A stretch of 64,000 bases of DNA from NCBI GenBank assembly GCA_051313645.2, contig JBNRSN020000011.1, forward strand, positions 120,838,001-120,902,000, in the 5' to 3' direction. Below the pieces are notes generated by a model. The model did no database searches. It was not told the DNA's origin and saw only the letters and a program-made list of their open reading frames with translations. Of the stretch, positions 30,976 through 31,647 are shown one piece after another. The stretch comes from Centroscyllium fabricii (lineage: Eukaryota). The translations under genes were made by a program, and so were the position numbers. The first letter of the stretch is position 1. Every line of letters starts with the position of its first letter.

Positions 30976-31647
30976 CAGGTCTGGCACTGTTAATACGGCA
31001 CCGGCGCGACCAAGCCGGTGCCGGACTAGTGAAAAATCCAAACGACTGAAGCTTTGGCGAGCACATGCGCAGACCATTCAAAATGGCCACCGCGCATGCA
31101 CAGACCATTCAAAATGGCCACCGCGCATGCACAGACCATTCAAAATGGCTGCCACGCATGCACAAGCCATTCAAAATGGCTGCCACACATGCACAAGCCA
31201 TTCAAAATGGCCACCACACAGGCGCAGACCATTCAAAATGGCCACCACGCATGCAGACCATTCAAAATGGCCACCGCGCATGCGCAGACCATTCAAAATG
31301 GCCACTGCTCATGTGCAGACCATTCAAAATGGCCACCGCGCATGCAGACCATTCAAAATGGCTGCCACACATGCACAAGCCATTCAAAATGGCCACCACA
31401 CAGGCGCAGACCATTCAAAATGGCCACCGCGCATGCACAGACCATTCAAAATGGCCACCGCGCATGCACAGACCATTCAAAATGGCCACTGCTCATGTGC
31501 AGACCATTCAAAATGGCCACCGCGCATGCACAGACCATTCAAAATGGCCACCACGCATGCGCAGACCAGTCGGGGAGAGGCCCGGATTCGTGCCGGACGA
31601 CTGAAGTTTCCGGATCAACAGTTTCCGGATTAACGGTGCCGGACCTG
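30976..31647. mobile_element. Tc1/mariner-type MITE with a ~16 x ~31-bp tandem array
   Basis: TA|caggtctggcactgttaat ... attaacggtgccggacctg|TA. Array unit gcgcagaccattcaaaatggccaccgcgcat. Confidence 0.9.

What the first reader, a model, noticed from the sequence alone, without database searches (positions are those of the whole stretch)
30976..31647. MITE family carrying amplifiable NRF1 plus YY1 motif arrays
Seen: about 16 tandem ~31-bp units, each pairing (GC)GCATGCGCA or a CpG-decayed variant with CAAAATGGC(C/T). The same module occurs in lower number and both orientations in relatives at 16523, 49190 and 53727. Established: TGCGCATGCGCA is the methylation-sensitive NRF1 site and AANATGGC is the YY1 core, both housekeeping-promoter factors. 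The period is about three helical turns, so the sites would be phased. Inference: a mobile, copy-number-variable promoter-like cassette that may keep the element open or seed regulatory sites. Five relatives in 64 kb imply a very abundant family.
Basis: partly seen in the sequence, partly recalled or inferred. Interest (0 to 1): 0.7.

Follow-up and report, generated by a model that had tools for sequence, protein, structure and literature searches.

The report
Young jumping-gene copy with decaying minisatellite
This is one copy of a very abundant, recently spread miniature jumping gene whose middle has stuttered into 16 short repeats; the repeats look like binding sites for two common gene-activating proteins, but they are decaying the way silenced DNA does, so it is most likely an ordinary genomic parasite.

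Summary
30976-31647 is a MITE: 23-bp terminal inverted repeats, TA duplication, no transposase. Two related species show the empty site, one with a single TA, and have no contig on the element at 80% likeness; two samples of this species give 17,166 and 19,242 contigs. It is a young, lineage-specific, very abundant family of pogo/Tigger-Tc1 type. The 16 units all keep CAAAATGGC, but only 1 of 17 NRF1-like sites is intact and 41 of 62 CpGs are lost. Phasing breaks at two 29-bp units, and a 3-bp microhomology explains the period. A sister element with the same ends has neither motif. Best reading: a methylated passenger minisatellite inside a MITE, like Xenopus miDNA4. One lead survives: other copies carry intact sites, and the NRF1 palindrome is better kept across diverged relatives than the YY1 core, which allows a selfish germline-opening role (about 12%). 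No chromatin data could be tested.

The parts
30974..30975 (.). Left TA of the target-site duplication
   Evidence: empty site in X15 has one TA
30976..30998 (+). Left terminal inverted repeat, 23 bp, begins CAGG
   Evidence: 20 of 23 alike to the right TIR
30999..31060 (+). Left subterminal region shared by five relatives
   Evidence: alignment A1; thousands of contigs
31061..31070 (+). First NRF1-like palindrome, one CpG decayed in this copy
   Evidence: about 83-85% of family depth has the intact G at 31063
31071..31562 (+). 16 head-to-tail units (14 of 31 bp, 2 of 29 bp): spacer, YY1-like core inside a CCATT-CAA-AATGG hairpin, NRF1-like palindrome; 10 unit types; 6-unit higher-order duplication
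31276..31285 (+). The only intact NRF1 10-mer in the array
31563..31624 (+). Right subterminal region
   Evidence: alignment A2
31625..31647 (-). Right terminal inverted repeat
31648..31649 (.). Right TA of the target-site duplication
16523..16851 (-). Complete relative in opposite orientation, TA on both sides, modules arranged as hairpins
   Evidence: fold z = -10.75
3877..4253 (+). Complete relative, same TIRs, a different 31-bp internal repeat, no NRF1 10-mer within one change and no YY1 core
49190..49581 (-). Relative with one TIR only, single module plus inverted module, and its own GC-rich minisatellite
53727..54240 (+). Most diverged relative; two tandem modules, further inverted ones; right TIR not found

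Best explanation
A non-autonomous TA-targeting DNA transposon (MITE of pogo/Tigger or Tc1/mariner type) spread to very high copy number in this species' lineage after it split from organisms C and D. Its interior is built from a short palindrome-rich module that is readily duplicated, head-to-tail or inverted, by slippage or template switching during replication or gap repair. In this copy the module grew in steps to 16 units while the DNA was methylated in the germ line, so CpG-decayed units were amplified as freely as intact ones. The NRF1- and YY1-like words are passengers here. Shown: insertion, TSD, lineage restriction, abundance, CpG-type decay, stepwise growth. Inferred: methylation (from the mutation pattern), the slippage mechanism, the superfamily, and the absence of function.
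For: Empty site in X10 and X15 and no contig of theirs on the element; 73 and 81 contigs with unlike flanks at 30974 in X1 and X3. Of 64 CpG sites in the array 21 are intact, 41 changed, 2 deleted; the CpG after the YY1 core is CA in 13 and TG in 3 units, the two deamination products. 7 of 8 CpG columns show the deamination change against 3 variable of 23 other columns (units are not independent). Family-wide 16 of 20 CpG bases but 4 of 66 other bases in 31000-31085 show a minor variant at 4% or more; NRF1 CpG bases average 6.5% (n=3), others 5.2% (n=13). The single module in 49190-49581 is bounded by GCG on both sides, 31 bp apart. Relative 3877-4253 transposed without either motif. Other inverted-repeat elements in the window hold unrelated minisatellites. 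No host-gene domain in 171 ORFs.
Against: Other copies continue in tandem with intact CCGCC and NRF1 text (139 and 175 loose ends at 31099). In 10 spacer-anchored modules the NRF1 10-mer has 6 mismatches in 100 bases (2 not CpG) against 17 in 80 for the YY1 core (5 of 15 hits dropped, see full report). The most diverged relative (17 of 58 subterminal differences) keeps perfect 10-mers near both ends. Singly changed NRF1 sites still bind in vitro at 0.66-1.81 uM against 0.31 (PMC10810270 Table 2), so 8 of 17 sites could bind if unmethylated. Neutral decay in inert copies cannot exclude selection on active master copies. No methylation or chromatin data were seen.
Confidence: 0.75

Rival explanations
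1. Selfish regulatory module: the NRF1 palindrome (with YY1 as helper) keeps fresh or master copies open and unmethylated in germ cells, making them better substrates for the transposase; selection acts on masters only, and inserted copies like this one then decay.
For: NRF1 10-mer better kept than YY1 core and subterminal DNA across relatives (chance of a perfect 10-mer at 29% divergence about 0.03); near the right end of two relatives the palindrome abuts AAAATGGC or AAGATGGC, differing at the loose position of the YY1 core. NRF1 binds and activates unmethylated IAP retrotransposons in mouse germ cells (PMC12420836).
Against: Only 3-4 independent lineages; palindromes and inverted internal copies can repair each other; 3877-4253 moved without the motifs; a MITE needs no transcript; YY1 core intact in only 3 of 10 spacer-anchored modules.
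Confidence: 0.15
2. Host-used regulatory cassette: the array acts as a phased NRF1+YY1 promoter or enhancer at this locus.
For: 16 YY1 cores in one orientation, each downstream of an NRF1-like site, loosely matching promoter syntax (YY1 just downstream of starts and strand-biased, PMC11160661); MITEs have been tied to liver open chromatin in Xenopus (PMC12676858).
Against: 1 of 17 NRF1 sites intact; array CpG o/e 0.67 against 1.19 in the rest of the element; 21 of 62 array CpGs intact against 7 of 10 in the left end; phase not kept; young, lineage-specific insertion amid LINE fragments.
Confidence: 0.04
3. The module is an extra transposase-binding or structural (hairpin) signal, and the likeness to NRF1/YY1 sites is a by-product of GC-rich palindromes.
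For: Strong folding of two copies (z = -10.75 and -9.42); palindrome at fixed distance from both TIRs; internal repeats with transposase sites are described for Galileo (as cited in PMC4079207).
Against: No autonomous partner found to test; module shows no likeness to the TIR; absent from 3877-4253.
Confidence: 0.06

Closest known systems
miDNA4 of Xenopus tropicalis (Tc1/mariner MITE with an internal satellite unit); seen only through reviews PMC12628747 and PMC9659126
   Same: Vertebrate TA-type MITE whose internal unit occurs singly or as arrays of variable length; short microhomologies proposed to drive array growth.
   Different: Unit here is 31 bp, GC- and palindrome-rich, also arranged as hairpins; sequence relationship not tested.
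Xstir/Xmix of Xenopus; DTC84 of Donax (PMC3879986); Tetris of Drosophila virilis (PMC4079207)
   Same: Tandem repeats riding inside non-autonomous elements; DTC84 units carry a palindrome near the junction and every element is unique.
   Different: Other target-site duplications and architectures; longer units (156 and about 220 bp).
Tigger/pogo transposons (PMC9219625, PMC7386202)
   Same: TA duplication; 23-bp TIR lies within the 18-23 bp given for cartilaginous fish Tigger.
   Different: No transposase, so pogo versus Tc1/mariner is not decided; CAG-type ends as a Tigger trait is recalled, not from a call.
Mouse IAP and L1 promoters bound by NRF1 and YY1 (PMC12420836, PMC7605266)
   Same: Young mobile elements carrying methylation-sensitive sites; L1 has tandem promoter monomers.
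   Different: Those are retrotransposons that need transcription, with binding shown; here a DNA MITE with text matches only.

Membership tests
MITE (non-autonomous TIR DNA transposon) | Terminal inverted repeats | tested here: met
   20 of 23 bases; 19 and 21 of 23 in two relatives
MITE (non-autonomous TIR DNA transposon) | Target-site duplication confirmed by an empty site | tested here: met
   X15 runs from the left TA straight into the right-flank sequence; X10 likewise with decayed letters
MITE (non-autonomous TIR DNA transposon) | Short, no transposase | tested here: met
   672 bp; the 3 ORFs over it have no transposase match, one sub-threshold Nqo15 hit
MITE (non-autonomous TIR DNA transposon) | High copy number | tested here: met
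   5 relatives in the window; 17,166 and 19,242 contigs laid; exact number not measurable
pogo/Tigger | TA duplication and short TIR | tested here: met
   shared with Tc1/mariner, so not diagnostic
pogo/Tigger | TIRs matching an autonomous element with a pogo-type DDD transposase | tested here: inconclusive
   None among 171 window ORFs; none in prokaryote-centred collections; host genome not held
Tandem-repeat-containing MITE (miDNA4 kind) | Internal unit single in some copies, arrayed in others | tested here: met
   1-16 modules in window copies; 31-bp back-joints and tandem loose ends in other copies
NRF1/YY1 promoter-like element | Intact consensus sites | tested here: not met
   NRF1 10-mer 1 of 17; YY1 core 16 of 16 but following CpG lost 16 of 16
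NRF1/YY1 promoter-like element | Motif CpGs protected from decay | tested here: not met
   6.5% vs 5.2%; small n
NRF1/YY1 promoter-like element | Helical phasing along the array | tested here: not met
   resultant length 0.42 at 10.5 bp per turn; 6 of 46 periods from 15 to 60 lie as close to whole turns
NRF1/YY1 promoter-like element | Unmethylated, accessible, bound, initiating transcripts | not testable with these tools
   Only assembled contigs were served

The most novel reading that the evidence does not exclude
A DNA MITE family recruited an NRF1 palindrome, often paired with a YY1 core, as a selfish germ-line chromatin opener; this drove a lineage-specific burst that laid down tens of thousands or more methylation-sensitive NRF1 sites, with tandem arrays as dose variants. 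It would extend NRF1 hijacking from mouse retrotransposon promoters to an element that needs no transcript.
Probability: 0.12. Interest if true: 0.7.

Novelty: new member of a known kind. Interest (0 to 1): 0.27.

Why it matters
As a passenger it is a tidy, datable example of a minisatellite being born inside a young MITE and eroded by methylation, and a useful lineage marker. If the selfish reading held, it would show a non-transcribed transposon using a host housekeeping factor to stay accessible, and a very large pool of latent NRF1 sites held down by methylation in one fish lineage.

Tried and rejected
Whole-genome census: no genome held. Exact module pattern: 0 in metagenome and prokaryote contigs; TIR pattern: 0 in metagenome and viral contigs; uninformative for an animal repeat. 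No RNA holder listed; no RNA run was laid. Coding reading: ORFs over the array are stop-free repeats; only a sub-threshold Nqo15 hit, rejected. Rfam: only a 5S match at 15003-15116. Homology of the 3877 unit to the array unit: not significant (22% of 500 shuffles score as well), so only shared period and position are claimed. YY1 versus spacer conservation family-wide: no variant listed at 31070-31101, and a known family difference at 31089 was not called near the end of the stretch, so inconclusive. Array length variation between X1 and X3 was not examined, because the reads were laid on 30790-31101 only. Earlier scan notes: nothing relevant in 5 look-ups.

Full report
Observation. The array is real: 16.4 copies, period 31, at 31064-31568; 16 copies of CAAAATGGC against 1.2 expected in the whole window. 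It sits in a 672-bp element, 30976-31647, with TA on both sides and 23-bp TIRs. Four further TIR-bearing relatives lie in the window. The window is otherwise full of LINE fragments: of 171 ORFs of 75 aa or more (two low-complexity stretches and ORFs with N left out) the Pfam matches were reverse transcriptase and endonuclease domains, one ALKBH8_N match and one sub-threshold Nqo15 match; no transposase. Short exons would be missed. The repeats look like those of a cartilaginous fish; this is recalled and comes from no call.

Mobility and age. I laid 4 of the 21 listed runs on 30790-31101. Both samples of organism A have a contig crossing the left junction without differences. Organisms C and D each gave one contig, covering the flank only (10 and 11 other letters in about 184) and continuing into sequence matching the right flank, in D after a single TA. 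This is an empty site and confirms the duplication. Neither gave any contig on the element at 80% likeness, against 17,166 and 19,242 in organism A; the tool warns that a hole proves nothing, but the contrast is large. 73 and 81 contigs have unlike, AT-rich flanks at 30974. The tool says summed depth is no copy number; my bracket from depth ratios, allowing up to 31-fold overcount, is about 2,500 to 120,000 for the subterminal part and 19,000 to 950,000 for the module, the module being 7-8 times the subterminal figure.

Decay in this copy. The 16 units fall into 10 types; units 4-9 and 10-15 are a 184-bp duplication with later changes. Relatives and loose ends show CCGCC after the YY1 core, so the unit began with four CpGs. 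Of 64 sites 21 are intact, 41 changed, 2 deleted; the first is CA in 13 and TG in 3 units. The NRF1 10-mer is intact at 1 of 17 sites, singly changed at 7. By Table 2 of PMC10810270 (passages seen) the three single changes present correspond to 1.81, 0.66 and 1.27 uM against 0.31, and symmetric double changes mostly to weak binding. The commonest unit (5 of 16) has the 1.81 uM form, so growth did not favour good sites. Units share ancestry, so these counts are not independent events.

Decay in the family. In 31000-31085, 16 of 20 CpG bases show the deamination variant at 4% or more in at least one run, against 4 of 66 other bases with a minor variant. NRF1 CpG bases average 6.5% (3 bases), others 5.2% (13 bases). 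Dropped: three bases where this copy carries the decayed letter (31040, 31055, 31063; reference bias) and 31044 (not listed, under 4%). The motif is not protected. NRF1 occupancy is limited by methylation (PMC7605266, passages).

Period and phase. In the relative at 49190-49581 the single module is bounded by GCG 31 bp apart, so one slip gives this period (inferred). At 10.5 bp per turn the phase drifts 17 degrees per unit and jumps at the two 29-bp units, covering a full circle. Each unit holds two palindromes, and both folded copies are far more stable than shuffles. The double change at the start of units 4, 5 and 11 extends the small hairpin, perfectly in unit 4, which suggests template switching (inferred).

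What counts against me. Other copies carry tandem units with intact text. Anchoring on the spacer alone gave 15 hits in five relatives. I set aside 5 that had no NRF1-like sequence upstream: two self-matches in a hairpin of 49190, three in 3877-4253. That choice favours NRF1 conservation, since two of the latter may be positional counterparts that lost the motif. In the other 10 the NRF1 10-mer has 6 mismatches in 100 bases (2 outside CpG), the YY1 core 17 in 80, intact in 3 of 10. Subterminal DNA differs from the four-copy consensus at 4, 4, 6 and 17 of 58. Modules within one element are recent duplicates, so this rests on 3-4 lineages, and palindromes can self-repair. It keeps a selfish role open: neutral decay of inserted copies says nothing on selection among masters, and NRF1 does activate unmethylated IAP elements in mouse germ cells (PMC12420836, abstract and passages).

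Comparison. Tandem repeats inside MITEs are known: miDNA4 and Xstir (only through passages of reviews PMC12628747 and PMC9659126; originals not seen), DTC84 (passages), Tetris (passages). TA and a 23-bp TIR fit Tigger in cartilaginous fish (passages and Table 1 of PMC9219625; passages of PMC7386202) but also Tc1/mariner. PMC11160661 and PMC12676858 were seen as passages. Searches for this family or an NRF1+YY1 MITE found nothing relevant in the listings; Dfam and Repbase could not be searched, so it may already be catalogued. No supplements were read.

Verdict. A new member of a known kind: a young, abundant, minisatellite-bearing MITE, methylated and decaying at this locus. Interest 0.27; the selfish-NRF1 reading has about 12% and would merit 0.7.

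Noticed in passing
window 30408-30790: SINE-like repeat just left of the element; the loose end of organism D joins the sequence at about 30391-30409 directly to 30793, so this insertion is also absent in D.
   Followed up: partly
window 19046-19768: Another inverted-repeat element (32-bp arms) filled with 10-11 bp tandem repeats, CpG o/e up to 1.59.
   Followed up: no
window 8030-8968: Element with a GC-rich 30/50/142-bp minisatellite (8256-8766) and one intact YY1-like site at 8908; ends not resolved.
   Followed up: no
window 54250-56480: Element with perfect 28-bp inverted ends next to the 53727 relative; holds a 1-kb GA/G-rich array and a nested SINE; may have removed that relative's right TIR.
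   Followed up: partly
window 30976-30998, 16523-16851, 3877-4253: Two TIR variants exist: 16523 has one of each, 30976 has the TCCGG type at both ends and 3877 the TTGAG type at both ends, suggesting conversion between ends.
   Followed up: no
window 15003-15116: 5S rRNA match, 58.7 bits, minus strand; dispersed copy or 5S-derived repeat.
   Followed up: no
window 63300-64000: GC-rich stretch (64% GC, CpG o/e 0.73) at the window end; promoter or another repeat.
   Followed up: no
window 26751-27407: ORF of 219 aa with a Pfam ALKBH8_N match (E 4e-17); probably a LINE tail, which is recalled and untested.
   Followed up: no
window 2-559 and 1970-2526: Two LINE fragments in inverted orientation, 87-94% complementary.
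   Followed up: no
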